A stretch of 64,000 bases of DNA, taken from contig CAJINV010000002.1 of NCBI GenBank assembly GCA_905178155.1, positions 372,376 through 436,375 of the forward strand. The letters are read 5' to 3'. The notes under the pieces were generated by a model. That model worked only from the letters and a program-made list of their open reading frames with translations, did not search any database and had not been told where the DNA came from. Shown piece by piece: positions 17,867 through 59,122 of the stretch; the first letter of the stretch is position 1, and every line of letters begins with the position of its first letter. The translations under genes were made by a program, and so were the position numbers. This DNA comes from Amoebophrya sp. A120. Lineage: Eukaryota > Protista > Dinoflagellata.

Positions 17867-18061
17867 GATCGCGATTTCAAATTGATGATCGCGATTTCAA
17901 ATTGATGATCGCGATTTCAAATTGGTGATCGCGATTTCAAATTGGTGATCGCGATTTCAAATTGATGATCGCCATTTCAAATGCCTGATCGGCATTTCAA
18001 ATGGGCGATCTCCATTTCAAATCGCTGACCGCAATTCCAACTTGACGATCTTCATTCCAAA
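17867..18061. repeat. Duplicate copy of the 20-bp minisatellite
   Basis: Offset +4946. Confidence 0.85.
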
Positions 18062-26328: not shown

Positions 26329-29300
26329 TCACCGCTTCTTTATGAACTGCAAAAGTATCGTACTCGTATAAACGCATGACAAATTCGTCCCTCAGCATGA
26401 GAAAGAAAATTTGTAATGCGTATTTACCTCAAGGAAAAGATTTGTAATGCATGATTGCAATACGTATACGAGTACGATACTTTTGCACAGGATATTCTTC
26501 CGGCCCGCTTGCTCCAAAAATGCGGTCCACTCGTCCACCCGGGCCAAACTTATCCTATGCAAAAACCTTCCCACGAGCCCATAGTTGTCATGCCAAACAG
26601 AAGTGCGCAAAAGGTTTCTCATGCGGAGCCCGATAAAAACAGGCTTTTTTTAGTCGTGATTCATCGGAATTTGTAATGCTCCAATCCGCATAATAGGCTA
26701 GACCTGTGATGCTGCTGAACAAGCTAAGTCGAAGACTTTACACTACGAGGATTCAGCAGACTTGTCATGCGCAACAACCAAAGCTGGCTGATTTGTCTAG
26801 CAGATTTCCCATCTTGATGACTATGGGGTGATGCGGGTCCCGTTTTTGCTCAGGATAAAGCCCCATCTTCCGCTATCGTGATCCACGTGGAAAACAAACA
26901 ACGGCGTACGCCTGTGAGAGTGCACAACCCCTCCTCTTCCCCCTCATTTGTCATGCGAAATCGGAATTCCAGCTGTTGTTCTCATCTTGTGTCACTATTC
27001 TGTATCACAAATTCCGAAAGTAGCTGCCCAAACAGTAAACACTCGGCGTATATAAAACCTGTCATGCACAGGCTCCACAAGTGCTGGTGTTCGTGTTTGT
27101 ATATGCTGTTTATGCATACATACCAATGAGGGGAACGGGGAGTATGCACTGTCATATCGCCTCGCTTCCGTCGAGAAAGCCGGGATTTTCTTCTGCTATC
27201 CTATGCAAAAACGGTCACGCCCCATAGTCAAGTTGGGAATTTTTTTTTTTTTTGCCCTGCCCCCAATTTTTTCATCATTCAGTTATTCTAGTCGGGGCGG
27301 TGGGCGTTTCCAAAAATGTGAAGAACCCCTCCCGCCCACCATGTTATTCACATGTAAGGAATTGCGCGGGTATACGGCTTTTTTTTCCCGATTTCTTACT
27401 TTTCCGCTCTTGTCCCCTGCTCCAGCATGTTGGTTCTCGATCCGTTTTCGTACTGAGCCCCTTGTTCTCGTTTCGCCTCCGTTTTCTCCCTCCTCCCCCG
27501 CGTGCGTATGCCCCGCGGCCTGGGCTTCCTCGTTCTGTGGCCCCGACAACGCGTGCAGATCTTCCAACCCCCCGCCGCCCTTCATGCGGTTCCGTCGAGC
27601 TCGGCGTCGTTTTCAATGTTTCCGACTCCGTGTGCCATTTTCCATGATGTTTTCTAAATACTTGTGCAATGAAGTGACGCGATACTAATCCAAAGACAAT
27701 GACAAAGAGCGTGACAAAAGGCCAAAAAAAAATAAAAAATGTTTGAAGCAGGATACTTAAGAGTAGAAACGCACCACTGCCATCATATTTGCATTTCTAA
27801 TCCCCGGCATTGCCCCAAGTCCCACAGCCAGCCTCTGCTGGAAAAAAAAGAAAATTCCCTGGCGTGTTTTATTCATAGGCGCAGCGCGTGGGGGGGACCA
27901 CATTGGCCCCCCCCGCACACTGCTAGTGTGTTGAAGTATCTGCCGCGTCGCTTTACATGACTACGTTTTGTTTTACGAAGTGCTTTTCTTTACGAAGTGC
28001 TTTTCATTTTCAAGATGTTTTTCTTTACGAAGTGCTTTCTTTACGAAGTGCTTTTCTTTACGAAGTGCTTTTCTTTACGAGTCAAGTTGGGAATTTAGCA
28101 ACACAAATCTCCATAGTGTTGGGAGCTGTGCATGACAAGTTTCCCTCTGCAGTGTAGTGTTGGTTGGCAAGGGAAGCCGCATGAGAAAGCCATTTTCTCA
28201 TCCTGTAGTTTATTACAGAATAAATGCAAAAACTCGACTCGAAATGCCTCTCGTGCAGCTGCGCATTACAACTGTTCCTGTCATTGCACATCTGCATGAC
28301 AACTCTGCGGTGGGGACGTTTTTACCAAAGATATCTGCTCACTAAGCCTTACCGCCTCGTCACTCGCCCACAGCGGGTTCAGGAGTGTCAGCAGCCCACC
28401 GTTTTGCAGCGAGTACGGTCTATGCATTGCAAAAGTATTAAATCGCACTACTCTGAAAAATCGCATGACAAAAAAAATTCTCAAAAAAAAAACTGCAACT
28501 TGTCATGCAGATTCAGGTCGGAACGAAAGCAGACTTGTCATGCATGACTGCAAGTTATCATGCGAGTACGATACTTACTTTTGCAGTGGATAGGTTCGGT
28601 TCTCAAACAAAACAGTGGCGTTGGGGTTGTTGCGCACGCCCGTATTTGGATCCGTACTCACGTCTAGGTTCGGCACCACGTCTTTTACCGTGATTTTGTG
28701 TCCCCTTCCCGTGGTCTGCCCCTCCTTAGCGGCCCGCGCCCCGCGGGTCTTTCGTCGTATCGTGCTGGTTTTGTCTTTTGGGGGAGAGATTAGCGGCTCC
28801 ACCGTTTCGCTGTCACCCGCGATGAGTTGGGGCGACTCGAGGTAGCTGCCCCACTGCGCCCGGCCCGTAATGTTGGTCACATCCTTATCCACAGCAAACT
28901 ATTTTTCCCATAATATAACACACAAGTGCGGAGGTTTCTGCATGACAAAATTTTCTTCAATCTCATTCAGCATGACAAGTAGCATGCTGCTCCAACAGAA
29001 GTTGATAAAATAATTTACGATGCATTTTGATGTGCGCCGTCGTGTAGTACAGGAAAAATAAATGGAAATTTCTACTGCATAATCCCGAATGCGGTAGCCG
29101 GCCACCAACATTGCGAAGGCGTGATAGGTGATCATCTCAAAGTTGGTGTGTTCCAAATTCCGTGCGATATGACAGTGCACAACTCCCCCTCCCCCTCATT
29201 TGTCATGCAAAATACCCAATTTCCCCTTTGCCTCTTAGCACTGTTCGCATGACAAGTTTTGGTAGCCCAAATAGCACTATACCCCAGTGCAAATTTGTCA

Positions 29301-32300
29301 TGCAAAACCGGCATTCTTGCTGATGCTTGTATTGCCGTTCATGCTAAACAAATGAGGGGGAGGGGGAGTTGTGCACTGTTATATGCGAGGGAACGGAATG
29401 AATAGGTGTTTGTCGCAGGTGGCGGAAGAATGGGGAGCTCGTTGTTCGTCGCACCCGCAACACTACTACTACTTCTTTCCTTGCTTCCCTTGTGGAGGTG
29501 CGATGCGGCTTGTTTTCCAGCGAGGTCCAGGTCCCCCGTGTCGTGTAATATTGTCTTGTGCCGACTATGACTAAACCGCCCCGCCGGGCGAGGCACAAGA
29601 TGAACAACTCCGGCGTTTTTTTCTTCCTCCTGCGCCGTCAGCAGCGCCACGCACTCCTTGCGCAGCTGTTGCTTAGAGACGAAAGCAGCTGCTCCCGTCG
29701 CGCCTGTAGAAGCTTTCAGCATGTTCGCGACCTCGGGCGCCAAGACAGTACTAGTTGACGCTTTTTTGTTCGTATCCTGTGCAAAAGTATCGCACTCGTA
29801 CTCTAATCATGCATTACAAATCTTTTTCTCGAGGGAAATCCACATGACAGATTTCATTCCTCATGCTGAGGAAATTTGTAATGCATCTATACGAGTACGA
29901 TACTTTTGCAGTTCATAGTTCGACGCCCCACCCTGTTGTTCTTCTTTGAGTACGAGTTCCTTTTGCAGCCTTTCCGCAACACAGAGCTCCAGTTTTTTGT
30001 TGTTTTTCTCCAAATATCAAATGCAAAAATGTCTGGGTCTGGAAAGAGGCAGCGAGTTTGTGATGCTGAGTCTTGCAAGGCAGAGCGAGGTTCTGTACGG
30101 CATACACGCATCACAAATTTTTCGCTTGGTATTGCGAGTTCGACCGTGTTTCGCATGATAAACTAGCTTCCAGCACGACAAAAAATCTGGCCCATCGCAT
30201 TCGTGCATTACAGAGCTCGTTGTCTTTCAAAAGTTGCATGACAAATCCAGACCCAGACGTATTTGCAATGCACACCAAAAAGACGAAATCTTGCTCGTTC
30301 TTCAGGGGGAGGATCGAGTTCGCCTTGTAGACCATGGATGGAAACGAGAACGAATTCATCTGTGGAGCAGCTCTACTTTGTTCTTCTGACGCTGTTCTGC
30401 TAGGACCACTGCGTGCGGATTCTTGCCCATTGTGCAGGTTTCCTGGAAGATAGCCACCACCTCGGCCGTACGGGTTGTACACATTTTTCCAGAACGCCCA
30501 ACCTTTCACAAACATGGGCGCAATCACGGTGAGATTCACCACCGGCAGATCCGCCCACCAGGAAAATAGTCTGCATTGCAAAAGTTGTATCGCACTCGTA
30601 TAAATGCATATGCATTGCAAATTTCCTCAGGATGAGAAGTAAAATTTGATAAAATTTGTAATGCGGATTTACCTTAAGAAAAGGATTTGTAACGCTAATG
30701 CATGATTGCAATTACCACGAGTACGATACTTTTGCACAGGATAAATAGCGTCCGGGTGCCAAACACGTCGGACAAATGTTCAGTGTTCTTCTGGAGAAAA
30801 GCGTCCAAGTTTTGCTTATCAAATGCAAAAATATCTGGGCAGGGAAGGACGCAAGGTTTGTCATGCGCAGTCTGCATGGCTCGTGACGTCTGTGATGCAT
30901 GCCGAAGCGTCACAGATTTTGTGAGGCCTTTCTGATGCCTATACCGCATCTCTCGTCGTGGCAAAAACTGGACCTCTTTTGCTGTTTATGCAATACAGAT
31001 TTTTGTAGTATCCAAATGCAGCATCACAAGTTGCAATCTCCCAGACCCAGACATGTTTGCGTTTGATATTGCTGCATGGAAAGCAAAGTTCCTCCTGCTT
31101 CTTCCACTTCACTCGGTACTTATCCTGTGCAAAAGTATCGCACTCGTAGTAATCCCATTCATGCATTACAAATTTCTTTCTCAATTTAAATCCGCATTAC
31201 AAATTTTATTTCTCATGCTGAGCAATTTTGTATTGCAATTCATACTAGTACGATACTTTTGCAATGCATAGTACTGGCGTGGGTACGTCCGTGACCACGA
31301 CCTTGTCGCCACCTATCGCGAGAAATAAACAGTGTTACAGTTACACACGACTCACTGATGCAAGAACAGCAAGATAGACAACCTCTGTCATGCAGGGAAT
31401 GCTTGCCAGCCTTGCCTGATTTCATCATGCGTGTTTTCCCTTATAGTCTGCGCATTACAAGTTTTCTTTGCTATGCACCAGAGCAACTTTGTAATGCTGA
31501 AATTCCAACAACAAATGCGTATTACTGTAACACATATTTTTTCCAGTGATACCACCCTTCGGGCTTGCATTCGGACTCTGAATCCACTGGAAGAATTGCC
31601 GGGGGATTGACGCTATGAATTGCAAAAGTATCGTACTCGTACCAATCGCATTTATGCATTACAAATTTCTTTGTCAAGCTAAACTTGCATTACAAATTTC
31701 GTTCGTCATGCTGAGGAAATTTGTCATGCGTTTTATACTAGCACGATACTTTTGCAGTACCTAGACGCTGAGGATTGGCCCGACTGGGATTTCGCTGGTG
31801 GATCATGTGGAGGGTCCCCTGGACGACCCGCGACGAGGTTGTGGCCTACCGTCTTATTTTGCATGATATTTAGCTGCAGCGCCCCGTTTGCCGCGTTCAC
31901 CGCAACTGGCATATCAAATGTAAAAATGTCTGGGTCTGGAAACTTGTAATGCTGTGTTGGGAATGGTGAATGCTCTGTAATGCACAGCCAAGCATGAGAA
32001 ATATATGCGCTTCTTTGTGTTGCGTTTTTCGCATGAGAAACTGCGTTTTTGCATGACAGGAAAAAGGGTCTCTTCTTGGACACGCATCACAAACTTTTTT
32101 GTCATGCCAGACAAGCATGACAAATCTCGCAATATTCCAGACCCAGACACTTTTACATTTGATATGGCAAAACCCTTCGCAATAGCGCCCGGTCGTAAGA
32201 GAGCCCGGTCCAGGAAGAGGTGGATGATAAGTTGTAAACCTCTATCCTGAGTGAAAACGTCCCCACCCCAGAGTCAAGTTGGAAAATCTGCTACACAAAT

Positions 32301-35300
32301 CTACCAGTGCTTTAGTTGTTGCGCATGACAAGTTTGGCGTCGTACTGTGATCCTGTTTAGCTAGTTCAGCAGCATCACAGATCTAGCTTAAAGTGGTGAT
32401 TCGAGCATAACAAATTGCAAAGCACGACTAGAAAAAGCTCCTCATGGGGCTGCGCATCAGAAACATTGTAGGCATGCAGATTTGCATGACAGCTCTGGGG
32501 TGGGGACGTTTTTGCGGAGGATAACCTCCAGGACATCGGACACCTCGGACGCGGGAAAGCGTATCCTGTGCAAAAGTATCGCACTCGTACCAAAAATTAT
32601 TGCGATCATGCATTACAAATCTCCTTCTTAAGCTGAAACAGCATATACAAATTTCGTTCTTCATGCTGAGGGGATTTGTCATGCGATTTGTACTAGGGCG
32701 ATACTTTTGCGATTCATAAAGCGTTTGGAACGGTCATTCCGGTAAACCCGATCGTAAAAATACGCCCAGGCATTGTCGTGCGGATCGTTTTTTTCATGCA
32801 CGACTTGTTGATGATGCACGGAAGAGGACGTCGTCGTGCCGCCCCCGCCTGTTGACCGTGTAGTTTTGTTGCTGCTCGACGTCCTAGCACTATGCGACGG
32901 TTGATGTTGTGCGAGAGCTGTACTTTCCTCGTTTACCGAGCCTCCTGGCACTACCGGTGATGCAGTACTTCTACTACTCCCCCTCATGCGGTTTTTGTTT
33001 GCGAGGCAGGTTTGAAAGTTGAGAATCAAATCCGCATCGAGCATCACGCCGTAGTCTGGACGTTCGGTTACGGGAAGGTCGAGTAATATGAACTGCAAAA
33101 GTATCGCACTCGTATCAATGCATTACAAATTCCCTCAGCATGAGAAATAGAATTTGTCATGCTGATTTGCCTTGCTAAGGAGATTTGTAATGCAGGATTT
33201 GCATTCATACGAGTACGATACTTTTGCACGGGATAAGTAAGTGCATCATGCCATACCACTTCTTCCAGCCACTGTAGCCCTGTATGTCCGCCGGGAGCTA
33301 TGCAAGAAAAAAACTGTGTAACCGTAAGTCTGTGATGCAGAAAGTGCAAAACTGTTGCGATTGTCATGCTGGATGTGCGTCATACGCCACTTTTATACGT
33401 GCTTCCGCGTACTAGCTGCGCATGACAGGTTTTCCCAGTAAATGCAAAAGGAACTTGTGATGCTGCTCTGCCTACAAAGTTAGTACACTCACACAGTTTT
33501 TTTCCCTGGATAGGAGCGGGTGAATGTGCAGAGGGGGGTTAGCAATAACCGCCTGCCAATAGCCTTTTATCGCAAAAGGATTCTTTCTTTTCCTTGGTCG
33601 TCCACGAGAGCCGGTAATTATCCCGCTGCTTGCGTCGCTCTCCCCACGTTGGGCCGCGTCTCGTTCTACTGCGTCGACCGGCAGCGCACCGGCACTGTTG
33701 TCTACTTCGCGGCTGGTGCTCTCAGGTTTATTTTTTTCAGCAGAGTTGTCGTTTGGTGTATTTCTATTTCCCACTCCTGCAGGATCTTTGTTCTCACCGC
33801 TGGAAGCTGCTGTCGTGCCATGCGCTGTTCCTGTGTGCTGTTCGTTTTCTTGTCCTGACCCTTGTTGCGTGTTCCCTCCTCCTGGCTCGTCTTCTTTTTC
33901 TACCTCGTCGGCCGATCGAATCGATGCGGCCTCGGAAAATTTATCTTCCTCTCGGATCGTATGGAAGCGTCAGGTTTAAAATCGACAAAGTTGAAATAAT
34001 TTGTCATGCATAAAATGGATGCCAGTTGGAAGACCAATTCCCAAGCGGCGCATGACAAATTTTCGGAGCACCGAAATCCAATTTGTCATGCTATTTGGGC
34101 ACAGAAGAGTGCTGTTGTCATGCTCCTTTAGCAGCTCTATCCCAAACCCTAAAAAGGCTCACAATCTGCCTCACTTGCCATCCCGGCAAGACAGGCACTT
34201 CATGCCTTGCATTTTATGCATGACAAACCATTTCAACTTTGACGATTTCAAACCTGACAGCTAGATAGATCGTTAAAAGATCATCCACATCGGGGACGGT
34301 TTTCCACAAGACACTCCTGTTCTTGTTGCCTGCTCTGGCAGCAGCAGACGTGGAAGCTGCAGGCGGGGATGAAAGAACTGCCCTTTGTGTAGTCCTGATC
34401 TCTTTATGCATTGCAACAGTATTGTTTTGTACTTCGAGTAGTGATTGCATGACAAATTTCATCAGCATGAGAAATGGAATTTGTCATGCTGATTTAGCTT
34501 GGGAAAGAAATTTGTAATGCATGACTGCAATCAGTATGAGTACGATACGTTTGCACAGGATACTCTTTCGTTTTCTCCAATTTCAGCACTTTTTCGTACT
34601 TCAGTGTTTTCAGACCCTGTTTTATCCAGGAAAAAAAGTGTGTAAGTGTAACTTTCTACTTTGAGGAACAGCATCACAAATTTGCTTTACATGACAGAGA
34701 AAACCTGTCATGCATAGCTTGTAAGGGAAAACACACATGAAAAGAGGACTTCATGGCTGTCTTTCATGACAGACGTAACTCTGTTGCATGTTCTGCAACA
34801 CAAATTTACACTATACACAGTTTTTTTCTTTCATATGCTTCCACAAATGATAGTCTTTTTTTGTGGAAAATACCAGGTGCACCGTCATCGCCTTCATAGC
34901 GGCCGGACATTGCGCGTACTGCTGCAGAAAGCGGGCCAGTAAATGGTACTTCGGCGGGTGCACGGCGATCGCCAGGCCGATGCGCTTGCGAGTCAGGGTG
35001 AGATTGGGAGGTGGGGGAAGCTGGTCGTGATCGGCATGAGTCTTCTCAATACCGTAGCTTTGACGCCCCGTTGTGCTGCTTTGCTGGTGCATGATTCGCT
35101 TGTACAGATCGAAGTCTTCGCCACGACTGCTTTCACGCAGGATATACTCCTCCGGCGAAATAGCTGCAGCGTCAGCTCCGAGGACTAAGCCATCTTGTGC
35201 GCCAGCACTGCCTCCGGCAACTACATCCACGCCGGAGGAGCCTCTCGTCCGCGTGTGGCCATTGTGTGAATAGAACGCGGCAAGCCTGCTAGTAACCGAT

Positions 35301-35974
35301 GTCGCAGTCTTCGCCTCACTGTGGCTGTCCACGCCAACACTACTGCCTTCATCCTCCTCCTTTTCCAGTTCCGTGTCAAAAATGGTGCCGATGCGGAAGA
35401 AAATTGGCAATTTAATCGGTTTTTTCTTGCTCCGCTGAAATGCGTGGTTGAGTCGCTCGGAACTGGAATTCAAGACCGCGTTAGACCGCGTGTAGGCGAT
35501 GGCTTTGTTGTATTACAATGAAAAATACCCCCACCCCCGAACTTGGGAGCATTTGCATTGCAAACCTTTCCAAAACCAAATGAAACATTCGCCCTCTTGC
35601 ATGCATCTATCAGCATCACAGATTTCTAATCGTAAATGGCAAAAATTTGTATTGCAAAAGATCCCAGCAAGAGCAGCGCTTGTCATGCAAGCGATGCGAT
35701 ACGCGCCTAGACTCTGCATCAGAAAGATTCATACTCCCTTCCTGCATGACAAAAAGTTCATTTGGAAACTTCGCATCACAAATTTCTGCAACTTTGGGGG
35801 TGGGGGCATTTTTCACTGCAATATGTTGTTCGTCAAGTTCTTCCGCCGGCGGAGGAGTGCGAATTGGATCCGCCTGATTTCCTCATAGTTCGTCGACTGG
35901 AAAAGCAGGAAGCAGAAAACAGAGGAGAAAAGGAACCCTGGAAACCAGGAGAAAAGCGCCGGGAGGAAGGCCAT
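26329..35974 (-). CDS. Putative type II membrane glycosyltransferase-like protein (DxD motif), split by 23 introner introns
   Basis: Manual removal of all 23 elements plus one DR each gives one open frame from ATG 35974 (MAFLPALFSWFPGFLFSSVFCFLLFQS, signal anchor) through RIGLAIAVHPPKYHLL, YSGWKKWYGMMHLLDLPVTERPDYGVMLDADLIL, LFSWWADLPVVNL, FEMITYHAF and PLFVFHVDH to TGA 26329-26331. Function is inferred from topology plus the DAD motif only. Confidence 0.8.
26341..26494. mobile_element. Introner family A
   Basis: TIR TGCAAAAGTATCGTACTCGTA / TACGAGTACGATACTTTTGCA; DR TTCTT/TTCTT. Confidence 0.92.
26551..26857. mobile_element. Introner family C (diverged)
   Basis: TATCCTATGCAAAAAC..GTTTTTGCTCAGGATA; DR AAACT/AAGCC. 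Confidence 0.85.
26913..27156. mobile_element. Introner family E
   Basis: TIR AGTGCACAACCCC..CCCCTCATTTG; DR ACGCC/TCGCC. Confidence 0.85.
27243..28079 (-). mobile_element. Retroposon-like (SINE/truncated LINE) insertion
   Basis: 17-bp DR AGTCAAGTTGGGAATTT at 27226-27242 and 28080-28096; T-run at the left end equals poly(A) on the minus strand. Confidence 0.75.
27965..28080. repeat. Tandem ~17-bp repeat TTTTCTTTACGAAGTGC, about 7 units
   Basis: Directly visible at the 5' end (minus strand) of the nested insert. Confidence 0.9.
28421..28592. mobile_element. Introner family A (diverged)
   Basis: TATGCATTGCAAAAGTA..TACTTTTGCAGTGGATA; DR CGGTC/GGTTC. Confidence 0.85.
28886..29081. mobile_element. 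Introner, unassigned family
   Basis: TATCCACAG..TATTTTTCC / GGAAAAATA..CTGCATA; DR ATCCT/ATCCC; removal joins YRIRD|VTNITG. Confidence 0.8.
29168..29383. mobile_element. Introner family E
   Basis: Near-perfect TIR TATGACAGTGCACAACTCCCCCTCCCCCTCATTTGT; DR TGCGA/TGCGA. Confidence 0.93.
29773..29917. mobile_element. Introner family A (reverse orientation)
   Basis: DR GTTCG/GTTCG. Confidence 0.92.
30015..30274. mobile_element. Introner family B
   Basis: DR CCAAA/CCAAA. Confidence 0.9.
30570..30743. mobile_element. Introner family A
   Basis: DR AATAG/AATAG. Confidence 0.9.
30817..31068. mobile_element. Introner family B
   Basis: DR TTGCT/TTGCT. Confidence 0.9.
31121..31270. mobile_element. 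Introner family A (reverse orientation)
   Basis: DR GTACT/GTACT. Confidence 0.92.
31314..31551. mobile_element. Introner family H
   Basis: DR CCACC/CCACC; TIR core TGTTACAGT/ACTGTAACA. Confidence 0.87.
31614..31763. mobile_element. Introner family A
   Basis: DR GACGC/GACGC. Confidence 0.9.
31912..32164. mobile_element. Introner family B
   Basis: TIR TATCAAATGTAAAAATGTCTGGGTCTGGAA; DR TGGCA/TGGCA. Confidence 0.93.
32243..32523. mobile_element. Introner family C
   Basis: DR ACCTC/ACCTC. Confidence 0.92.
32562..32718. mobile_element. Introner family A (reverse orientation)
   Basis: DR AAGCG/AAGCG. Confidence 0.92.
33087..33235. mobile_element. Introner family A
   Basis: DR AGTAA/AGTAA. Confidence 0.92.
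33299..33512. mobile_element. Introner family H
   Basis: DR GGAGC/GGAGC; TIR GAAAAAAACTGTGT. Confidence 0.9.
33960..34267. mobile_element. Introner family I (TIR about 55 bp)
   Basis: GTCAGGTTTAAAATCGACAAAGTTGAAAT / ATTTCAACTTTGACGATTTCAAACCTGAC; DR GATCG/GATCG. Confidence 0.9.
34405..34562. mobile_element. Introner family A
   Basis: DR CTCTT/CTCTT. Confidence 0.9.
34623..34835. mobile_element. Introner family H
   Basis: DR TGTTT/TGCTT. Confidence 0.87.
35511..35823. mobile_element. Introner family D
   Basis: DR TGTTG/TGTTG; opposite orientation to 6898-7201. Confidence 0.92.
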
Positions 35975-38260: not shown

Positions 38261-38525
38261 TATCAAATGCAAATATCCCTGGATGTCTGGAAGGATGCGA
38301 ACTTGTCATGCTAAATCTGAAGCATGCAAAAATCTGTGTTGCATGATTACCAAATGTCGTCCAGTTTTGACCAAGTCGGAGGGGAGTTTCTCATGCAGGA
38401 CAGGCATGAGGGGGATCGCACAGATTCTGTCATGCCAGGTCCTGCATTCCAGACCTCATGGGTCATGTAAAAGCTGCATGACAAATCGCGCCTTCTTCCA
38501 GACCCAGACATTTTTACATTTGATA
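38261..38525. mobile_element. Introner family B (host frame unresolved)
   Basis: DR TTCCA/TTCCA. Confidence 0.88.
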
Positions 38526-38596
38526 TTCCAGAATGCATTCGGCAACTATCCACGGAGACGGTCAGACTGCTAGATCACTGCTTGTTCCACAGGCAT

Positions 38597-38858
38597 TATC
38601 AAATGTAAAAATGTCTGGGTCTGGAAGGATGCAAGGTTTGTCATGCACATTTTGCATGACTACTGATGTCTGCGATGCATGCCCTAGCATCACAGATCTT
38701 TTGAGGGCTTTCTCATGCGTATACCGCATGAGAAATGCCCTCTCGCCGCGGCCAAAACCAGACCTCTTTTGCTGTTCGTGCAATACAGATTTTTGGATAA
38801 TGCAGACGCAGCATCACAAGCAGCTTTCTTCCAGACCCAGACATTTTTACACTTGATA
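38597..38858. mobile_element. Introner family B (host frame unresolved)
   Basis: DR GGCAT/GGCAT. Confidence 0.88.
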
Positions 38859-49447: not shown

Positions 49448-51827
49448 TTTTTTGTTCTTTCGCTGTTAAAGGATGTGCTTGTACAGCGGGTGGTTCTGCT
49501 GGCAACTGCTGTATCTGCCTGCGCGGCGGATGAAATAAAAGCCCTTGTTGGCGCCGTGGGTTTCTTTCTCCGAATAAAATCTACCTCTTCCCGCGATTCT
49601 TTCTGTAGTAGTTACAGACGAAGAAAGGAAAAATCAAAATCTTCGCTTTTTTTATCCACCGACCTTCTTTCTTGGTAGTTGTACGAAGTGGCACAAGACA
49701 ATGGTACTGCACGCGGAAGGGGTAGAAGTTGATGATGTTACCGGATTTTTGAGCTAGTATCGGTGGACGCAACTATGCCTCCAAGTCCAAGGAAGCTGCT
49801 GCTACAACTTCCACCGTGAACAAATGAAGGTCGTCTCCGGAGATGAATCGACGGCTCGCGCGTCGCGGTAAAGAAGTTCTCGGAAAACACAAAGACGCGA
49901 CGGCGAGTAGATTCAAAAATCTTATACGTTTGTGTCGTGGTTCCTCGGTTGGACAGAGACAATAGAGGCAGACCTCCACGACGTTGATTTGAAATTACTG
50001 GCAGATGAAGGGCTTGTTGTCGTAAACAACTCGCAGCACTACACGTGTCCCTACAGTTGCTGTTGTTGTCGTTGTTGTACACGTGGAACTCTATGGTATC
50101 CTTTCTTCAGGTTTATCGTGAGAGAAGTACAACAACAAGCATAGAAGCAAATTAACAGTTGCATACAGAAACCCTCTTTATTAATGACCTTTTCTATTTG
50201 AAATATGCGCAGCTTTGATTTTGAACGAAGAAAGTAAAAAAGAAGTTGTCTGGTCGACCATGATCTATGTTTGCGCACCCAGATGATAGTACATTAGCGT
50301 ACTCTCGATAGTGTAACCGAATAAGTAATGATAAATCAAGTGATAGTGAAAATTTTTATAGCAGAAGTACAACCACCTCCGCACGCGCACCTTGATTGGA
50401 AGGCTAAAATGCGTCAACTCTTTGTGAAGATATCAGGAGGTCATATCGCATTACAACAACTAACTAGGTGTTTACTGTTCTTGTCTCCACAGCTAGCTTG
50501 CTTGTTCGACGAAATAATATAAACAATATCAGCGTGCCACGAAACTGTGAAGGTACATATACAAGAGCCTACCTTTTTTTTCAGAAGCGGCTGAGATTGC
50601 GAAACATGACGGAGATAAACCTGGCCTATTCCAGCTATTCTTCAATACTACCCATTTGTGAAGACGGAAGATTGCCGCGCTGTTTCAACATAGTGAAAAA
50701 TTGATCTCAGCTTGTTTCATCGGGCGCAGTGGTTTGTGATGAAATGTTGACAGCATCAGGAAAGAATGTTGCGCTGCAGGTAGAAAAAAGCTTCTTCATA
50801 GTTCTGGCTAAAGCCATACACATACACCCCAGCATGCAAACCTGAAGAAGTCATGTTTTGTCCGCGGCAGAACTGATAGTTCTTGGTATGTTTATGTCGT
50901 GCTCGTCGGAGAAGTGACTAGAAAAGTGTTCGTGAGTCACTGACGTGCACCACCAGCGTGCTTTGTCAGGAAAGGATCGTTCTTCTTTCGCACTAGAGGC
51001 AAAATTGAAGAAGAAGTTTGCTCGATTAGTGTTGATGGTGGAATTTGTTGTGAGTACAACAGCAAGTATTGGTGCGCCAGCCGTCGGCATCTGTACCTAC
51101 CTCTGCTGCTGGAGCACTGGCAGCTCTAGGTCTTCGTCTAGTCAAGATTGTTGGTCCAGTAACTACCTGGTGAACAGTGCTTGCTAAGTAGCGCAATTGC
51201 GTTTTGTTCACGGAGAAAACTTCTATACGCGAAATCTACAGGAACACATCGAGCATTTTTTGCAAATGCTTTTGGACCTCCTGAGCGCTGACACAAGCAC
51301 AACAGTTCTCGCAAAATTGGTCAAGTATCGTCAAGTTTCGCTTCGATTTTCTGTTTCGTCGGTTCTTCCAACTCATTGCATATATAAACAGCAAATATTT
51401 CTTGTACATAATGTTTTGCGTCGCTGATGTAGTAAGGAGTTTGTGCAAAACGTAAACAGCAGAAGCGGTCGCTCCAAAAAAATAAAGCCATTAAATTAGC
51501 GAAGAACTAAAAAGGGTCGCACTTACGCCCAGGGGTTTTAGTTCTCTTTTACTTTAGGTTCCGCTTTTTGTTTCATTTTCACCAGGTTCGTTTATATTTT
51601 TTTCATACTCGAAAGGGGGTCAGTTCATTTGAAGAGACGGTAATACTGGAATGAAATCAAGCTAAAGCTACATATTCGATGAATTCGGTTTAGCTACGTC
51701 TCGAACCGCAATAAACCAGGACAAGGTAAAACTTAGTTTCAGCAAAACGGCAGCTCCAGGCGTGCCGAAAATTTCTGTAAAAGAATGCCAGAACCAGTGA
51801 TGGAAGCAAGGAATAACTCTTATTCCT

Positions 51828-54800
51828 TCACTCCTGGTGAGGAGATTTGTTTCGCGACGCACTGGTATCGTCCACTCGACGCACAGCACGCGGCGGCCTC
51901 CTCTTCTCTTTCAGGTTGAACAGTTGATTGCCAGCGGAGGTCAGGGGCGGCGTGGCGGAACGACGATGGTGAAGAGCCGGAGGTGGGTCGGGGACGGTGT
52001 GGCCTAGTACCTGTGGTTTTCTCTTAATATCATCTACTTCGCCAGGCATTTCAATGCCACTTCCGCCTGCAGCCACACCTCCTTGTTCCGCTGCATCTAA
52101 AGTTGTTGTTGTATTCGAAGAAGTGCTAGTGCTTGCCGCCGGGACCGAGGCGGGTTGTACAACGACGCTGCTAGAGGATGAAGCACCTGCTCCTGCTGCT
52201 TGTCTTTCACTTTCTGCAACAGTTGCAGGGCCTTTACTACCCACCACCATGGCAGAGCCTTCCCCACCTTCTGTGCCTTTGATCTCACCAACATCCCGAA
52301 GATTCGCAGCCTTCGCCGCTCTCGCTAATCTTTTCTCCCTTCTCTGTTGGGGGTCTTTCAGGGTGAACAGATTCGTTGGCGGGGCGACTACTACCGGATC
52401 ATTCTCTGCAGGATCAAGAAGTTCTCCTCCACCAGAGCCTCCATCGCCCGACATCAAATGTGCAGGCTGTGCACCTTGGTGCGCCGCAGAAGATGAATTG
52501 TTGCCTGAGAGAAGTTCTTGTAGGTCCTGCAGCTGAGAAGCCCCTGCCGTTGCAGACGACGATGACGCACTGCCTGCGTCTTGTCCACCACCGCCCATCA
52601 TCCCCGGCTGTTGCAAAATCATGTGCAACTCGTAAAAGCTTTTCCCGTATTCCGCCCCGTCGTCTAACCGGTTAAACCGCGGCGCTGCCCACTGCGACTC
52701 CCAGCTTCTCGTCACGTGTTTCGGCTTTCTGATTCCCAGCTTCACTTGCTGATCGATTTCCAACAATTCTTCCGGGACAAATTGCTCCGATTTCTTCAGA
52801 ATCTCAATCAATTCCGTCGCCGCCTCTGGTATGTTCTCCCAGTACTCGAAAAACGTGATCGCGTAGCCTCGACCAAATTCCCCCCTCGCGGTCCGCCCAA
52901 TCCTGTGGATGTACTCGGAAGTTTGCTGGGGAAAATCGAACAAAACAACGTGGGTGATCCCCGAAATATCCACCCCCCGGGCGATGACATCTGTCGCGAT
53001 CAAAATTTTCGTCTCGCCGGACCGAAATTGGTTGATGCAGTTGTCGCGCCTTTCCTGCAAATCGCCACCGTGAATCGAATCCGTTTGGTACCCGTAGTCG
53101 TGGTAAAGAGTGTGGGCGATCTCCACAGCGGATTTCTGGGTGTTGACGAAAACTAAGACCTTGCACTCGTTCGGCAAGAGTTGGGAAGTTGTTGTGGCTG
53201 ATGTTGAAGTTGAAGTACTAGATGCTTCTGGACCGAATCCGGAGAATGCAACAGTTCCGCCACCGTCTGGCGTTTTTGCTTCCTTCACTCTAGTACTATC
53301 CGCGATTATTTTCCTTTGCTTGTTCACCCACGCCCGCTCCTCTTCATCCGGAACGGCGCTCATCCCTAACTGCCATGCGATCTCTTCCAGCCTTTTCCGC
53401 GACTTCCACTGCTTGTTCTCTATTTTCCGCTTCGTCTGCGCCCAGTGTGTATCCTGTGCAAAAGTATCGTACTCGTATTGCAGTGATGCATTACAAATCT
53501 CATTTTTAAGGTAAATCGGTATTACAAATCTTATTTCTCATGCTAAGAAAATTTGTCATGCATTTATACGAGTACGATACTTTTGCACTTCATAGTGTGG
53601 GTCGGTTCGCGATCTTTGGAAATCTTGCTCCCACTTGAAATTCGCATAAGCTTGCTTCATGCGCTGACACTCCTCCCAAGAGCGCATTTCCATGTTGTGG
53701 CAGTGATTATGTAGTTCATTGCCGTCCATTTTTCCGTTTCCTTTATTGCTCATCCAGCCTTTACCTTTTTGAATCGCGGCGTTGCTCTCCTCAGTGGCTT
53801 TCTCGTAAAACCGGATCCTTTTGTTTTCTTTGTCTTTGTTCTCCTTCTCACCTTCCTCCTGCTCCGATTCGTTCTTTTGATTATTCACGATATCTTCTCC
53901 AAAAAAAATCTCCCGCACGATCTCCTGTAGCTTTCCCACCTTCACGTAGTGCGTTTCCTGGTTGATCGCGTTGACCGCTCTTCTGATCTGCGATTTTTCG
54001 ATTTCGTCCTCTTTTTCCCTCTTCGCCTGGCTGAAGCTGTCGTAGTCATTTTTCTGTCTTTTCAAATTCCACTTGTTCATGATTTTCGTGGTCTCGTGCT
54101 GGATTCGGTGAAAGGTGTCGAAAACCTATCAAGGAAAAAAGTGTCAACGTTCACGTTGGCACTTTTGCACTCATGCATAACAAACTTTCTGTATCATGCA
54201 TGCTAAGCAATACAAACTTGGGCACTCCGTTTCTATATGCATATACTGCACGGCAAATTCCGTTCACGTTAACGCTTTTATTTCCTGTGATACAACCAAA
54301 ATCTCCTGTTCCACGGAATTCCGTGCCTGCAGGTCCAGCCTAATCCCCCCTTGTTGGATCGTGGAGGCCAGGGAGGAGGTTATGAACTGCAAAAGTATCG
54401 CACTCGTATAAATGCATTACAAATTTCCTCAGCATGAGAAATAAAATTTTTAATGCGGATTTAGCTTAACACAAGGATTTGTAATGCATGATTGCAACAC
54501 GAGTGCGATACTTTTGCACAGGATAGAGGTCATGGTTTGTTGATCTTGGCGGAGGTTGCTGTCTTGCGCTCTAGCTTCTGAAATGTAAAAATGTCTGGGT
54601 CTGGAAGATTGCCAGATTTGTCATGCAGTTTTTTCATGATCCAGGAAGCCCGGAATGCAGGACCTAGCATGACAGATTCTGTGCGATCTCTCTCATGCCT
54701 ATCCTGCATGAGAAACTGCCTCTCGATTTTTAGGTCAAAAGTGTACAACTTTTGGCAAGCATGCAACACAGTTTTTTGCCTGCTTCGGATTTAGCATGAC

Positions 54801-57800
54801 AAGTTGCATTCTTCCAGACCCAGACATTTTTGCATTTGATATGGCTAGAGCGATGTTCGAGGTGAATGGGGTTTGAGAAGAGGAAGGAAGAGCGCTTTGC
54901 TGGTGTTGAGCACCGGCTTGTCCTCCCGTACCTGCAGTGCTAGTAGAGTTATTTTCGATCCCTAACCCGAGTTTCGCGCGAAATTGGTTCATCAACAACT
55001 CCTCATCATCCAACTCGTCCCCTTCGCCGATCGTTTTCAGCGTCTGCCCAATCATGAGACACGCTTGCTTCCGATAGCACAGCGTCGAAGCGAGTTTCTG
55101 CACGTCTAGCGGCCAGGTCGCAGTGAAGAGCATGGTGCGTCTTTCTGTGCTGGTACAACGGGTGATCTGTTTCACTTGGCCGTCGAAGCCCATATCTAGC
55201 ATCCGGTCCGCTTCGTCTAGGACGAGGAAGGTGACTGTGCCGATATAACCCGCTCAAGTGTTGCAATCTTAAACGTTTACAATAGAATATGGAAATCTGT
55301 GATGCAAGAAGTGCATTATCTAGCCCGCTGTCATAGGATTACGCAAGACAAGTTTCGGAGCCCCAAAACGCACTAGAAATCTGGCGAAATTTGTATCGCT
55401 GAAGCGGGACGCTCTGGGAGTCTGCCATGCTCATTATGCAATACAAAATCCAGACGCTATTGTAACGCGGCTTGAGATTGTAACACCTGAGCGGGTCATA
55501 GCCGATTTCGTCCGCAACGTCGTCTTCGTGAGACAGGTAGTCGATAAGGCGACCTGAGAATCGACATTATCATGTTTTCTAAGCAAAATTTGTTTTTGTT
55601 GTAGTTGGGTGTTGAGCATGAGAAAAGTTTTTGGAGGAATGGGTGGTGTGCATCACAACTGGCGAGAAGTACTACATCAAACATCTGTACCTGGTGTCGC
55701 CACCCAAATGTTCGCTTTTGCCATCTGATCTGGTATGGAAACGAAAAAACTTCTATGTGAAACGGTATTTGAATTTGCCATGCCAACAACAGATGTGAAG
55801 TAAAATCGTGCGATTTGCTAACGTTATTTCATCAATTGCAAAGATGTCCGCAACTACACGACAAATTATACCGTTCTAAATTTTTTAAGCGCATTTTCTT
55901 GCTTCCATACTCAGCTGTCCCTCTTTCAATTCTCCACCCACCGCAATAGCCGTCTTCAAGCCAAAGGCATTTTTCCCGAACCCCACAACCCGATTCGCAA
56001 CGCCCTCGATCTGCTTTGCCAGTTCTCTGGTGGGAGCGAGAACGAGCATCTTCTGGTTGTCGAGAGTGCAGGTGTTCAGCTTCGGTCGAAGAACTTCTGT
56101 TGCGGAGGCAGAAGCTGCAGAGGCGGTTCGCTCTAAAGCTTGACTATCGCCTTCGACATTCTCGGCTGCAGTAGTCGACGCTGCGGTTACGTCGGTCGGA
56201 GGTTCCTTTTCCTTCTTTTTCTTGCTCTTCTTGCTTGTTTTCACAACCGTGGTCTTCAAAACCCCGCCTTCCTCACCGATCATGCTGTCGAGCAGATGTA
56301 GAATCCCGGGCACAAGAAACGCTAAAGTTTTCCCGCTCCCCGTTTTCGCAATCCCTATCACGTCGAATCTTTCCCGTAAGATCATCGCAATACCGTATTT
56401 CTGCACCGGTAAGAGCTTTTGGTACTGCCAGTTGGAGTTGATGTTCTGCAGTAAGTATCCTGTGCAAAAGTATCGTACTCGTATTGTAATCATGCATTAC
56501 AAATCCTGTTCTTCGGGCAAATTAGCATTACAAATTTTATTTCTCATGCTGAGGAAATTTGTGATGCATTTAAATTTATACGAGTACGAATACGATACTT
56601 TTGCAGTTCATAACAAAAAGCCGTATTCCGGTCTCTCCTCTAAATACCCATCGAACTTGGATTCCACATTGTGCCGGATATGGAGAGAAAAAAGTTTGTC
56701 ACAGTCACTAACTTGCGGGTTTTGCATTACAAATTTTTTTAGCATCACAGCTTTCCCCTGTATTGCAGAAACACTAGGGAAATCCCTAATGAAGTTTGGC
56801 TGTGATGCATTTTTATGCATGACAAACAATTTTGTATTGCAAAAATGCGCATGAGTGATCGGGACGAACTTTTTTTCTTTGATACCGAATCCAGTGTTTG
56901 TAGTACTTGTGCAGTTTTTATCGCAAGAAAAAACTGTTTCACTGTAAACTTGTAATGCAGAAAATGTATCTCGGAAGTCTTTGTCTTGCTACACATGCAA
57001 GACAGGCGATTTTTAGCTGTGTTTTCCCCTATAGGACAACCTCGCATGGCAAGTTTTCCCTGTCGTGTAGAGCAAACTTGTGATGCAAAACTTGCAAAAT
57101 CCTTACAGTGAAACACTTTTTTCGTACGATAGCTTTTTCTCCGAGACTTTATTCGAAGAGCTCGCTTGTTTGGTAGTTGTTCCGGTCGTTCCGGTTGTCG
57201 CGCTGTTGTCCAAGGTCTCTGTAGTTACTGGTACGAAATCCCCGGGCCAGTAAATTTGCACTTGGTCTTCCTTCATCTTTTTCTCCACACCAGTGGCGTC
57301 CTGCGGCTGCGGGAACCACTTCGCTTCGAACTTCTTGTGGCTTTTGCTAGAGGAGGATGAAGAGCTACTGCTGGTGTTGCTCCCGAATTTGGAGCTTTTC
57401 ATCGACGCTATACCGTTATAATTGTTCTCCGTCGAGCCTGCTGTTGTACTATCTGGGTTTTTGTAAAACCCCTCGTTCTCCATCTCCTCGTCGTCTTCTT
57501 GTTCTTCTAAAAGCAGATTTTTCGGCTGGTTTTTCATCAAGCTCGTCGTCGCGTTTGCAATCCGGGTTTCCCACCAGTTTGCTGTTGACTCGTCTTTTTT
57601 TTTAATGGCAGAAGAAGTAGAAGAAGAAGAAGCTTTTTTCTCTCTTTTCACCTTGATGTCTTTGATATGATTCTCCTTCGAAGTAGACGGTGCCGTGGTC
57701 TCCTTGTCTTTCGCGTGGTCAACAACAGCTTTTGAAGAAGAAGATGAGGAAGACTTTGACGTCGACTTCGGTTTTTTGGAAGATAGTTTCTCGGGGGGAA

Positions 57801-59122
57801 TTATAGGGGGCTGCTGCTCGTGCTCGCCTTCGTCTTGTGGCAGATGACGATGACCTGAAGCTCGCGCGGAGGCCTGTGCGGATGAAATAACCCCGTTCAT
57901 CTCGGGGGCACCAGACATGCTGCAAATACCAGGTGCGCGTTCTGACGTTTCCTCGTCTTGCTGTTGGCCTTTCACAACTTCCCTCGCAGGCTCTGCAGCT
58001 GGTGGTCCTGCTACTATATGCGCCTCCTTCTTATCGCTTACCATGGCCTTGCTCGACTTCGAAGATTTAGTCCCGTGTAGTAGCAAGTTCTTGTCACCAG
58101 ATCGAGCAGCTTCGGTCGAGTTCGTCTGGTTTAATTCAGGTTCGCCTCCTACCTCTGTCACTGGAGGCACCTGAACTTCGCCTTGTTCTTCCCCTTGGCC
58201 CTCATCCACTTTCACGCTCTTCGACGTTTTATTTTCCCGGAGCTTACTTCGCTTGCTGGCCTTCTTCTTCTCCCCGCCGGGTTTCTTCAGTCCGAAGAGC
58301 AATGAGCCCGAACTTGGCACAAAGGTTGCTTGTGCAGGAGAAACAGTACTAGCAGCAGTAGGAGGATCAGGATCTTCTAGTACGACAGGAGCTGCTGCTG
58401 TGCCTGTGCCTATGCCTACTTCGTGCATGTTGATCGAGGTGCTGGGAAGATTATCAGCGAAATCAGCTACAGCTGCCTGAACTGGAGCCGCGTCATGATA
58501 AACTGCGGGACCACCCGGAGGAACTTCTCCGTCAAAAGGAACAGAACTGCTGGCGCAGCTCCACCAAAGAGGGTCTTGACCACCGTCGCCACCACTGCCA
58601 CCTTCGCCAGCGGTCATCTCAACATTTTCGGCATGGAAAGGTGCGGAACCAGTGTTGAAAGATGCACCTCCAACTGCTCCCCAGCTGCCATCGCCCCAGG
58701 ACGAGCCGTCTCCCCAGCTGCCATCGCCCCAACTGCCATCGCCCCAACTGCCATTGCCCCAGGAGCCATCTGCCCAGCTATAGCCCGAAATAAAACCACC
58801 TGGAGCAGCTGCGCCTGGAAATTGTTCGCATGCTGGGGCGAAATAACTACAGCTACCCGATGAATTACTTGTGCCACCATCTGGGGGATATGCAGTGCAA
58901 AAGTATCGCACTCGAATAACAATAAATGCATTACAAATTTTCCTCAGCATGAGAAATAAAATTTGTAATGCGGATTTACCTCAAGAAAATGATTTGTAAT
59001 GCATGATTGCAATACGAGTACGATACTTTTGCAGAGGATAGGGGAGTTGCACCCGCTTCGGCGGCGGACAAACGTGGTCGTGGTACAACCTCGTTCATCT
59101 CGGTTTCTACACAACTTTTCAT
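51828..59122 (-). CDS. DEAD-box ATP-dependent RNA helicase (DDX5/Dbp2-like group); 9 introners plus 2 GT-AG introns
   Basis: Reconstructed motifs: Q motif (YQKLLPVQ), AKTGSGKT, LAPTRELA, GG, VATPGRLID, LVLDEADRMLDMGF, FTATWP, LVFVNT, IHGG, ATDVIARGVD, YIHRIGRTAR. GT-AG introns at 55730-55910 and 55554-55690; ATG at 59122. Confidence 0.93.
53450..53594. mobile_element. Introner family A (reverse orientation)
   Basis: DR GTGTG/GTGTG; joins RTDPH|WAQTK. Confidence 0.92.
54127..54292. mobile_element. Introner family H
   Basis: DR AAACC/CAACC; joins VEQEILV|FDTFH. Confidence 0.85.
54381..54525. mobile_element. Introner family A
   Basis: DR GAGGT/GAGGT. Confidence 0.92.
54577..54841. mobile_element. 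Introner family B
   Basis: DR TAGCT/TGGCT. Confidence 0.9.
55244..55500. mobile_element. Introner family J
   Basis: TIR TATAACCCGCTCAAGTGTTGCAATCT / AGATTGTAACACCTGAGCGGGTCATA; DR GCCGA/GCCGA; joins DEIG|TVTFLVLDEAD. Confidence 0.93.
55554..55690 (-). other. Canonical GT-AG intron
   Basis: CCAG|GTACAG..TTCTCAG|GTCGC; rebuilds helicase motif TPGR. Confidence 0.9.
55730..55910 (-). other. Canonical GT-AG intron
   Basis: CTGA|GTATGG..ATACCAG|ATCAG; gives GQLNQMAKANIWVATPG. Confidence 0.75.
56456..56612. mobile_element. Introner family A (reverse orientation, DR largely mismatched)
   Basis: Intact TIRs; flanks GTAAG/ACAAA; removing element plus 5 nt keeps the frame YGFL|LQNIN. Confidence 0.88.
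56679..56884. mobile_element. Introner, H-like
   Basis: TIR AGAAAAAAGTTTGTC / GACGAACTTTTTTTCT; DR CCGGA/CCGAA. Confidence 0.85.
56919..57131. mobile_element. Introner family H
   Basis: DR GTTTT/GCTTT. Confidence 0.88.
58889..59040. mobile_element. Introner family A
   Basis: DR GGGGA/GGGGA; removing 157 nt joins the ATG exon to the long exon. Confidence 0.92.

What the first reader, a model, noticed from the sequence alone, without database searches (positions are those of the whole stretch)
26341..59040. Removal appears orientation-independent
Seen: family A has distinguishable ends (TATGAACTGC vs TATCCTGTGC). Within the same minus-strand genes it occurs both ways: 26341, 33087, 43485, 54381 versus 29773, 31121, 32562, 46603, 53450, 56456. 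Families D (6898 vs 35511) and F (2403 vs 10697) also flip. Established: spliceosomal donor, branch and acceptor signals are polar. Inference: the signal is symmetric, either a TIR hairpin in pre-mRNA or a DNA synapse.
Basis: partly seen in the sequence, partly recalled or inferred. Interest (0 to 1): 0.8.

Follow-up and report, generated by a model that had tools for sequence, protein, structure and literature searches.

The report
Either-way transposon introns, fixed cut
Small transposon-like inserts crowd the genes in this stretch, likely from the marine parasite Amoebophrya, and are missing to the base from likely-RNA assemblies whichever way round they sit, apparently cut at one fixed offset from their hairpin ends rather than at GT-AG, which narrows how these already known but unexplained introns would be spliced.

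Summary
Observation confirmed. The window holds 59 TAT...ATA elements with terminal inverted repeats and 5-bp direct repeats (DRs). They fit the published introner elements of Amoebophrya A120; no tool named the organism. Family A has 12 copies one way and 7 the other in co-oriented genes. Contigs of likely-RNA runs (one sample) lack element plus one DR in both orientations: 7 of 12 and 6 of 7 copies shown on both sides. A DNA-like run keeps the elements.

Added here: mismatched DRs locate the cut. One register fits all 11 informative junctions: intron = N + TAT...ATA + NNNN. It follows the gene's direction, not the element's, and the border dinucleotides are otherwise free. So the signal is symmetric but the cut is polar, which disfavours a DNA synapse. 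It does not exclude the spliceosome, because the repeats present the same ends either way.

Best reading: hairpin-guided, ruler-type RNA splicing, by a relaxed spliceosome (about 0.5) or a nuclease-ligase route (about 0.3). The elements are known; neither the orientation result nor the fixed register was found in the papers searched. The scan noted similar introns on other genomes, none on this DNA.

The parts
26341..26494 (.). Family A element, forward class (TATCC end 5' in the minus-strand transcript); perfect 5-bp DR
   Evidence: joint 26335>26495, skip 159 = 154+5, in X1-X4
28421..28592 (.). Family A, forward class; DR mismatched at sense positions 3 and 5, register 3-4
   Evidence: joint 28416>28594
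29773..29917 (.). Family A, reverse class
   Evidence: joint 29767>29918, skip 150
30570..30743 (.). Family A, forward class
   Evidence: joint 30563>30743, skip 179
31121..31270 (.). Family A, reverse class
   Evidence: joint 31115>31271, skip 155
31614..31763 (.). Family A, reverse class
   Evidence: joint 31608>31764, skip 155
32562..32718 (.). Family A, reverse class
   Evidence: contig offset arithmetic, X3 record 16
33087..33235 (.). Family A, forward class
   Evidence: contig offset arithmetic, X3 record 16
34405..34562 (.). Family A, forward class
   Evidence: contig offset arithmetic, X3 record 16
40038..40187 (.). Family A, forward class; outside both laid stretches, host frame not established
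43485..43632 (.). Family A, forward class
   Evidence: adjacent contig pieces 42890-43479 and 43633-44284 in X1 and X2
44290..44444 (.). Family A, forward class
   Evidence: contig piece stops at 44284, one side only; frame restoration
45656..45806 (.). Family A, forward class
   Evidence: contig piece starts at 45807, one side only; frame restoration
46340..46508 (.). Diverged family A copy, forward class
   Evidence: offset arithmetic X1 record 2
46603..46754 (.). Family A, reverse class
   Evidence: offset arithmetic X1 record 2: 1129 removed = sum of five elements+5
53450..53594 (.). Family A, reverse class, in DEAD-box helicase gene
   Evidence: adjacent pieces 51322-53443 and 53594-53976 in X2
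54381..54525 (.). Family A, forward class, in DEAD-box helicase gene
   Evidence: frame restoration only; no contig row shown
56456..56612 (.). Family A, reverse class; DR differs at 3 of 5 positions, register exactly 4
   Evidence: piece ends at 56451, one side only
58889..59040 (.). Family A, forward class
   Evidence: piece starts at 59041 with only 29 nt beyond; frame restoration
26332..36046 (-). Host gene of unknown family: 1253-codon open frame after removal of 23 elements
   Evidence: one 3676-nt contig spans most of it; no Pfam hit on the one exon scanned
44570..49465 (-). Host frame of 989 codons after removal of 9 elements (continues, probably over a GT-AG intron, into 42884-44639)
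51831..59182 (-). DEAD-box RNA helicase gene with 10 elements and one GT-AG intron (55690-55554)
   Evidence: PF00270 and PF00271 above cut-off on three exons
55734..55909 (.). Element whose excised intron reads GT...AG in the same register 4
   Evidence: piece starts at 55911, one side only
34623..34835 (.). Other family, mismatched DR, register 3-5; opposite orientation to 56919
56919..57131 (.). Same family as 34623, opposite orientation, register 4-6
   Evidence: one side only
47828..48143 (.). Family D element, register 4-5; same orientation as 6898, opposite to 35511-35823
42746..42889 (-). Canonical GT-AG intron; X1 and X2 pieces stop at its donor while X5 runs through, evidence that X1/X2 are spliced cDNA

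Best explanation
These inserts are likely non-autonomous DNA transposons (Amoebophrya-type introners) that are missing from likely-RNA contigs in both orientations, and they are likely spliced out of the pre-mRNA by a relaxed spliceosome that would measure from the predicted terminal hairpin instead of reading GT-AG. Shown: either orientation is removed as element plus one 5-bp DR; one register (intron = N + TAT...ATA + NNNN) fits every informative junction; the +1 base and the last four bases are free. Predicted: the inverted repeats fold into a stem of about 20 bp that starts 7-8 nt inside each element end, the same in both orientations. Inferred: the stem brings the ends together and sets the cuts by distance, so orientation does not matter while transcript direction does; the invariant U at +2 and usual A at +3 are what is left of a GU(A)-type donor. 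That the catalyst is the spliceosome is inferred and untested. Odds: RNA-level, orientation-blind removal about 0.88; one fixed transcript-polar register about 0.75; spliceosome as catalyst about 0.5 overall.
For: Removal both ways: 15 of 15 joints shown skip element+5, and five offset sums in X3 record 16 and one in X1 record 2 match exactly. Register: k=4 (4 nt kept from the 5' DR) fits 11 of 11 informative junctions; k=5 fits 7, k=3 fits 5, the mirror k=1 fits 2. The six junctions seen on both sides alone also intersect at k=4. Opposite-orientation pairs within a family (28421 versus 56456; 34623 versus 56919) exclude a k / 5-k rule. Free borders: 47 elements above 26 kb start CT 16, AT 13, TT 10, GT 8 and end in all 16 dinucleotides; 233 strand-called elements of another assembly give the same picture, GT...AG in 1 of 233. 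No orientation bias there: 62 versus 60 of 122 strand-called family-A copies (184 found). Hairpin in both orientations. For a spliceosomal heritage: all nine leading A120 non-canonical motifs in Table S4 of PMC7789003 start N-T and all nine A25 motifs start TT; with the IR starts given in that paper (TAT, TTA) both strains would read TA at +2/+3. That paper finds U2, U4, U5, U6 and nearly all proteins but no U1 in A120. One element is a GT...AG intron in the same register.
Against: No lariat, branch point or inhibitor data. Acceptor bases show no drift to AG and +1 none to G (G at +1 74 of 233, flank G 29%). CAG/TAG within the last 22 nt is passed over in 13 of 19 family-A introns, unlike ordinary scanning. 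The one GT...AG case is what chance gives (about 0.7 expected in 47). T at +2 may only reflect the transposon end. No sense-strand signature of selection on RNA pairing: 149 wobble-keeping versus 137 wobble-breaking changes, p=0.52; window 34 versus 26, p=0.37. All RNA evidence is contigs from one sample whose RNA label is a guess; 5 of the 11 register calls are one-sided and assume a skip of element+5; 6 further mismatched-DR elements in the laid stretches had no row shown. All host genes tested are on the minus strand, so transcript polarity is not separated from chromosome-strand polarity. PMC7789003 calls the splice position relative to the hairpin variable (Fig. 3 legend).
Confidence: 0.5

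Rival explanations
1. A non-spliceosomal nuclease-ligase route: a duplex- or structure-measuring endonuclease (RNase III-like or tRNA-splicing-like) cuts at fixed distances from the stem and an RNA ligase joins the exons, as proposed for euglenozoan nonconventional introns.
For: Borders carry no dinucleotide signal at the 3' end; nearby YAGs are ignored. The geometry (intron +4 opposite -7) equals the 6-nt-spacer variant of the Euglena code N3CDG / CH'G N5-6 (PMC12501133 abstract and section 8). Euglenid introns are reported to leave as circles, and RNase III or tRNA-type routes are proposed (PMC11282704 section 6; PMC12621601 passages). U1 was not found in A120. An 1137-nt element with a large internal insert is still removed exactly.
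Against: The implied 3-nt 3' overhang is not the 2-nt overhang of RNase III (recalled). The terminal 7 nt of family A are mostly predicted unpaired, so the cuts lie in single-stranded flanks. No bulge-helix-bulge can form from arbitrary exon ends (inference). No such enzyme was looked for; no genome was held.
Confidence: 0.32
2. Removal at DNA level: a transposase-like synapse of the inverted repeats excises the element from DNA (programmed or transient) before transcription.
For: The elements have every mark of DNA transposons, including a shared internal motif (175 hits in 10,587 nt inside versus 18 in 22,313 nt outside). X1-X4 are only guessed to be RNA. Only 15 of 621 joints were shown, so rare excision in the DNA-like run is not excluded.
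Against: Seven listed X5 pieces run from unique flank into or through elements at the same depth (about 40-46) as unique DNA. X1 and X2 also stop at a canonical GT donor (42889) where X5 runs through. A symmetric synapse gives no reason for a register tied to gene direction. Retained pieces occur in the RNA-like runs, as expected of pre-mRNA.
Confidence: 0.04
3. Reverse-transcriptase template switching: strong hairpins flanked by short direct repeats are skipped during cDNA synthesis, so the joints are library artefacts.
For: Hairpin plus direct repeat is the classic substrate for such jumps (recalled); all RNA evidence here is short-read cDNA contigs of one sample.
Against: Retention of 16 of 17 family-A copies tested shortens the longest open frame, including in a DEAD-box helicase; the exception, 26341, lies at the end of the stretch tested. 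One contig lacks a long run of elements in series. Junctions appear at the same register where the DR differs at 3-4 of 5 positions (56456, 55734; one-sided), with little microhomology to drive a jump.
Confidence: 0.05
4. RNA splicing with a flexible register: each element is cut somewhere within its DR, and k=4 is only the commonest position.
For: PMC7789003 describes variable splice positions and DRs of 3-5 nt; Polarella introners use several frames. Only 2 of 11 junctions pin k=4 on their own, both one-sided.
Against: 11 of 11 fit k=4 and no junction requires another value; the nine leading A120 motifs all start N-T.
Confidence: 0.09

Closest known systems
Introner elements (IEs) among the non-canonical introns of Amoebophrya sp. 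A120 (Farhat et al. 2021, PMC7789003)
   Same: IR begins TAT, then about seven variable bases, then a run of A; 5-bp DR example; hairpin model; MITE-like, many families; co-oriented genes; introns start N-T in Table S4. Very likely the same elements.
   Different: In the sections and supplement passages read, 'orientation' refers only to genes, and the border position is called variable or unknown. [quoted passage not shown] Figures were not seen.
Either-orientation introners of Polarella glacialis and Aureococcus anophagefferens (bioRxiv 2020.10.14.339549; Huff et al. 2016 not held, recalled)
   Same: TIR elements that make introns in both orientations and leave one TSD copy in the mRNA.
   Different: Those use GT/GC/GA donors and AG acceptors carried by the element or recruited from the TSD, so only some target sites work. 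Here G[TCA]...AG is possible in any register for only 8 of 47 elements and target sites look unrestricted.
Euglenid and diplonemid nonconventional introns (PMC12501133, PMC12621601, PMC11282704)
   Same: No GT-AG; inverted repeats pair the ends; fixed spacer at the donor side and a longer one at the acceptor side; MITE origin proposed; mechanism unknown.
   Different: Their core is CAG/CTG at +4 to +6 with a 3-nt and 5-6-nt spacer and a purine after the acceptor; here the element ends are TAT/ATA at +2 and -5 with a full 5-bp DR and large young families. Different eukaryotic supergroup.
Fritillaria borealis non-canonical introns (as reviewed in PMC11282704 section 6)
   Same: MITE-derived introns with TIR and TSD, removed by an adapted spliceosome.
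   Different: They have preferred borders (AG-AC, AG-AT) and a preferred exonic TAC; none is seen here.

Membership tests
Amoebophrya A120 introner elements | IR starting TAT, about seven variable nt, then at least three A | tested here: met
   position matrix of 80 element ends: T .98, A .96, T .98, variable 4-10, A .81-.91 at 11-14
Amoebophrya A120 introner elements | 3-5 nt direct repeat overlapping the exon/intron borders | tested here: met
   5-bp DR, perfect in 35 of 59 elements; a sixth base matches in only 14 and 21 of 59
Amoebophrya A120 introner elements | Removed from transcripts with non-GT-AG borders | tested here: met
   contigs of one sample, RNA label a guess
Amoebophrya A120 introner elements | Repeated families across the genome, no coding capacity | tested here: met
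   8 multi-copy families in the window; elements 112-370 nt, one of 1137; at least 140 family-A matches in another assembly
Amoebophrya A120 introner elements | Host organism is Amoebophrya A120 | not testable with these tools
   no genome held; run names are coded; identity inferred from the published description
Canonical U2 spliceosomal introns | GT/GC/GA donor and AG acceptor | tested here: not met
   GT...AG in 1 of 47 window elements and 1 of 233 in loci at register 4
Canonical U2 spliceosomal introns | Lariat with 2'-5' branch; dependence on U2/U5/U6 | not testable with these tools
   contigs only; the one raw-read RNA run laid (X9) gave 2 reads
Either-orientation introners of the Aureococcus/Polarella type | Introns made in both orientations | tested here: met
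Either-orientation introners of the Aureococcus/Polarella type | Splice dinucleotides carried by the element or recruited from the TSD | tested here: not met
   possible in any register for 8 of 47 only
Euglenid nonconventional introns | N3CDG ... CH'G N5-6 | R code | tested here: not met
   intron ends read NTAT ... ATANNNN; the base after the cut is unrestricted (DR position 5)
Euglenid nonconventional introns | Terminal pairing at fixed asymmetric spacing from the cuts | tested here: met
   register 1 nt / 4 nt; stem predicted, not probed
Euglenid nonconventional introns | Excised as full-length circles | not testable with these tools
   no raw reads of this strain were available
MITE (non-autonomous TIR DNA transposon) | TIR, fixed-length TSD, high copy number, random orientation | tested here: met
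   element depth in the DNA-like run hundreds of times that of flanks
MITE (non-autonomous TIR DNA transposon) | Cognate transposase and empty sites | not tested
   no autonomous partner was searched for; the loci shared no orthologous flank with the window. PMC12130899 reports a TIR family with integrase-like ORFs in A120; its link to these families was not tested
Group I/II introns, tRNA-type or other Rfam RNAs | Match to a curated RNA family | tested here: not met
   0 Rfam matches at gathering threshold in 64 kb

The most novel reading that the evidence does not exclude
An alveolate has evolved a second, non-spliceosomal mRNA splicing system that measures 1 nt and 4 nt from a transposon's ends and removes any such insert seamlessly, whatever its orientation, target sequence or inner length; it would be convergent with the unknown euglenozoan machinery and explain how tens of thousands of transposons sit harmlessly in exons.
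Probability: 0.3. Interest if true: 0.88.

Novelty: already known. Interest (0 to 1): 0.52.

Why it matters
How Amoebophrya removes about 40,000 non-canonical introns without a detectable U1 snRNA is stated as open in PMC7789003, and the border position as unknown. A fixed register tied to transcript direction and blind to element orientation gives exact intron ends for annotation. It also tells where to look for a branch point or circle junction and separates RNA from DNA models with existing data. If it holds genome-wide, it explains why these transposons can land at any 5-bp site in either direction without harm.

Tried and rejected
No whole genome was held, so nothing genome-wide could be run on this strain. 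No listed holder was on record as RNA. In one search the DNA-like run swamped the joint table, so that call is used only for its contig pieces.

Test for RNA-level selection on pairing: an ungapped count in the loci showed a G-U excess (222 versus 174, p=0.018; 175 versus 126 at positions 8-24), concentrated in one orientation class. It vanished in the alignment-based test (149 versus 137; unpaired 92 versus 94) and was absent in the window, so it was rejected. Sense versus antisense folding energy: sense lower in 30 of 45, p=0.085, not significant.

Hidden GT-AG or GC-AG in a shifted register: rejected (8 of 47 possible). A 6-bp duplication: rejected. Family-A repeat in viral contigs: 0 matches. 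Rfam: 0. Pfam on 9 further ORFs, including candidates for a transposase or reverse transcriptase: no hit above cut-off. No orthologous or empty site among 139 loci. Huff et al. 2016 was not held. Strand calls in the loci rest on a codon model trained on this window's restored frames; 105 of 338 elements got no call and were left out, and the finder recovered 42 of 59 curated window elements with no extras.
Full report
What is there. The window is eukaryotic DNA with co-oriented minus-strand genes interrupted by short elements that begin TAT, end ATA, carry imperfect terminal inverted repeats and sit between 5-bp direct repeats. I curated 59; 47 lie in 26.2-59.1 kb and fill 32% of it; the DR is perfect in 35 of 59. 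The end profile, TAT + about seven variable bases + a run of A, is the one given for introner elements of Amoebrophrya-type strain A120 in PMC7789003 (section 11). No tool named the organism, so this identity is inferred.

Orientation. Family A has 19 copies, 12 one way and 7 the other. Among the 18 first labelled, whole-length alignment agrees with the labels in 153 of 153 pairs, and 11 versus 7 is no departure from even (p=0.48). Seven of 8 multi-copy families have both orientations. These strand calls are inferred from a codon model trained on this window.

Both classes must go. Removing element plus one DR restores open frames of 1253 codons (23 elements), 989 (9), 911 (5) and 858 (5); the last two belong to a DEAD-box helicase. 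Keeping either orientation class breaks the frames, for example 1143 to 363 or 660. Frame alone allows element+2, +5 or +8.

Both classes do go. Runs X1-X4 are contigs from one sample, guessed to be RNA. All 15 joints shown for 26200-35900 skip exactly element+5; 8 more were not shown. Offsets inside a 3676-nt contig and a 2502-nt contig match the summed removals to the base in 6 of 6 intervals. Family A: 7 of 12 forward and 6 of 7 reverse copies are removed with both sides seen, 3 and 1 more with one side seen, and two forward copies have no data. X1 and X2 also stop at a canonical GT donor (42889) that the DNA-like run X5 reads through, and X5 pieces run into or through the elements. Some retained pieces exist in the RNA-like runs, for example 26884-27187 at depth 6.8 beside a joint at 39.2. 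Contigs cannot give efficiencies.

Where the cut lies. With a perfect DR the cut can be anywhere in it, which is presumably why PMC7789003 calls the border unknown (Fig. 3 legend). Seventeen elements in the laid stretches have mismatched DRs, and 11 had rows shown. Counting k, the bases kept from the 5' copy in transcript sense, k=4 fits 11 of 11, k=5 seven, k=3 five, k=1 and k=2 two each. Six junctions seen on both sides intersect at 4 by themselves; five are one-sided and assume a skip of element+5. Two pairs of opposite-orientation relatives (28421/56456, 34623/56919) exclude an element-polar k / 5-k rule. The intron is thus N + TAT...ATA + NNNN. All tested genes are on one strand, so 'transcript direction' is the natural but not the only reading. 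Independent support: the nine leading A120 non-canonical motifs in Table S4 all start N-T.

What the machine can see. In either orientation the RNA is predicted to form a stem of about 20 bp starting 7-8 nt inside the element (6 of 6 folded, z -5.4 to -11.0; for 45 elements). The bases that tell the two ends apart (positions 4-7) fall in the unpaired part. Position 1 of the repeat is complementary in 46 of 46 elements, positions 4-7 in 15-27. The +1 base and the last four bases are unrestricted, and nearby CAG/TAG are passed over in 13 of 19 family-A introns. An 1137-nt element with a large inner insert is removed exactly, so only the ends seem to matter. I found no sense-strand signature of selection on pairing, so the hairpin's role is predicted, not shown.

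Mechanism. I commit to hairpin-guided, distance-set splicing of pre-mRNA. For the catalyst I favour a relaxed spliceosome (0.5): intron +2/+3 read TA in both strains if Table S4 and the published repeat starts are combined, the spliceosome is present without a detectable U1, and an adapted spliceosome is the account given for Fritillaria. A nuclease-ligase route is a close rival (0.32): the geometry equals the 6-nt-spacer form of the Euglena code. DNA excision (0.04), template switching (0.05) and a flexible register (0.09) are less likely.

Literature seen. PMC7789003: abstract, sections 10, 11, 12 and 16 in full, keyword passages, and supplement passages (figure legends, Tables S4 and S7); figures not seen. 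bioRxiv 2020.10.14.339549, PMC12130899, PMC9860276, PMC12621601, PMC13326754: keyword passages only. PMC11282704: passages and section 6. PMC12501133: abstract, sections 8 and 12. Huff 2016: not held, recalled. Eight searches listed no paper that, by title, abstract start or the passages read, states orientation-independent removal or a fixed register for Amoebophrya. Subscription journals, the figures of PMC7789003 and the datasets of the two PNAS introner papers were not seen and could hold it.

Verdict. A real feature of an already known element class, with two additions not found in print: direct evidence of removal in both orientations, and a fixed, gene-polar cut register. Interest 0.52, because it makes an open splicing question testable with existing data, on evidence from one window and one sample.

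Noticed in passing
window 27197-28333: A 1137-nt element holds an inner insert of about 860 nt that starts with a T run, ends in a short tandem array and lies between two copies of a repeat of about 17 nt; it looks like a retroposed insert inside an introner. The whole is still skipped exactly (1142 nt) in X3 and X4.
   Followed up: partly
window 55734-55909: Element whose DR copies differ at 4 of 5 positions and whose intron reads GT...CAG in the common register; a possible conversion to a canonical intron, but one such case in 47 is expected by chance.
   Followed up: partly
window 12122-16989 and 17068-21935: Exact 4868-nt tandem duplicate that begins at the first base of an element, with the window's single N at 16990; probably an assembly artefact.
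   Followed up: partly
window 1-253 and 1821-2073: 98% identical duplicate covering the ends of two neighbouring elements and the exon between them; the restored frame repeats a peptide, suggesting an internal exon duplication.
   Followed up: no
all elements, 26200-59100: A short motif of the form T[GC]TVWTGC occurs 175 times in 10,587 nt of elements and 18 times in 22,313 nt outside, across families; candidate binding site of a shared transposase.
   Followed up: partly
window 12860-13174 and 17806-18120: Array of 20-nt tandem repeats inside the duplicated segment.
   Followed up: no
loci L001-L139: Another assembly carries family-A copies 82-94% identical to those of the window and many further elements, none with shared flanks. 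Long, possibly autonomous copies were not searched for.
   Followed up: partly
PMC7789003 Table S4 versus this window: Eight of the nine leading A120 motifs end in A-N, but no such excess is seen at register 4 here (12 of 47; 70 of 233 against 27% A in flanks); it may be aligner bias in the published table.
   Followed up: partly
window 28886-29081: Element missed by my first scan and revealed by a contig joint; it joins two frames into one gene, and its hairpin is weak (z -0.8) although it is removed exactly.
   Followed up: partly
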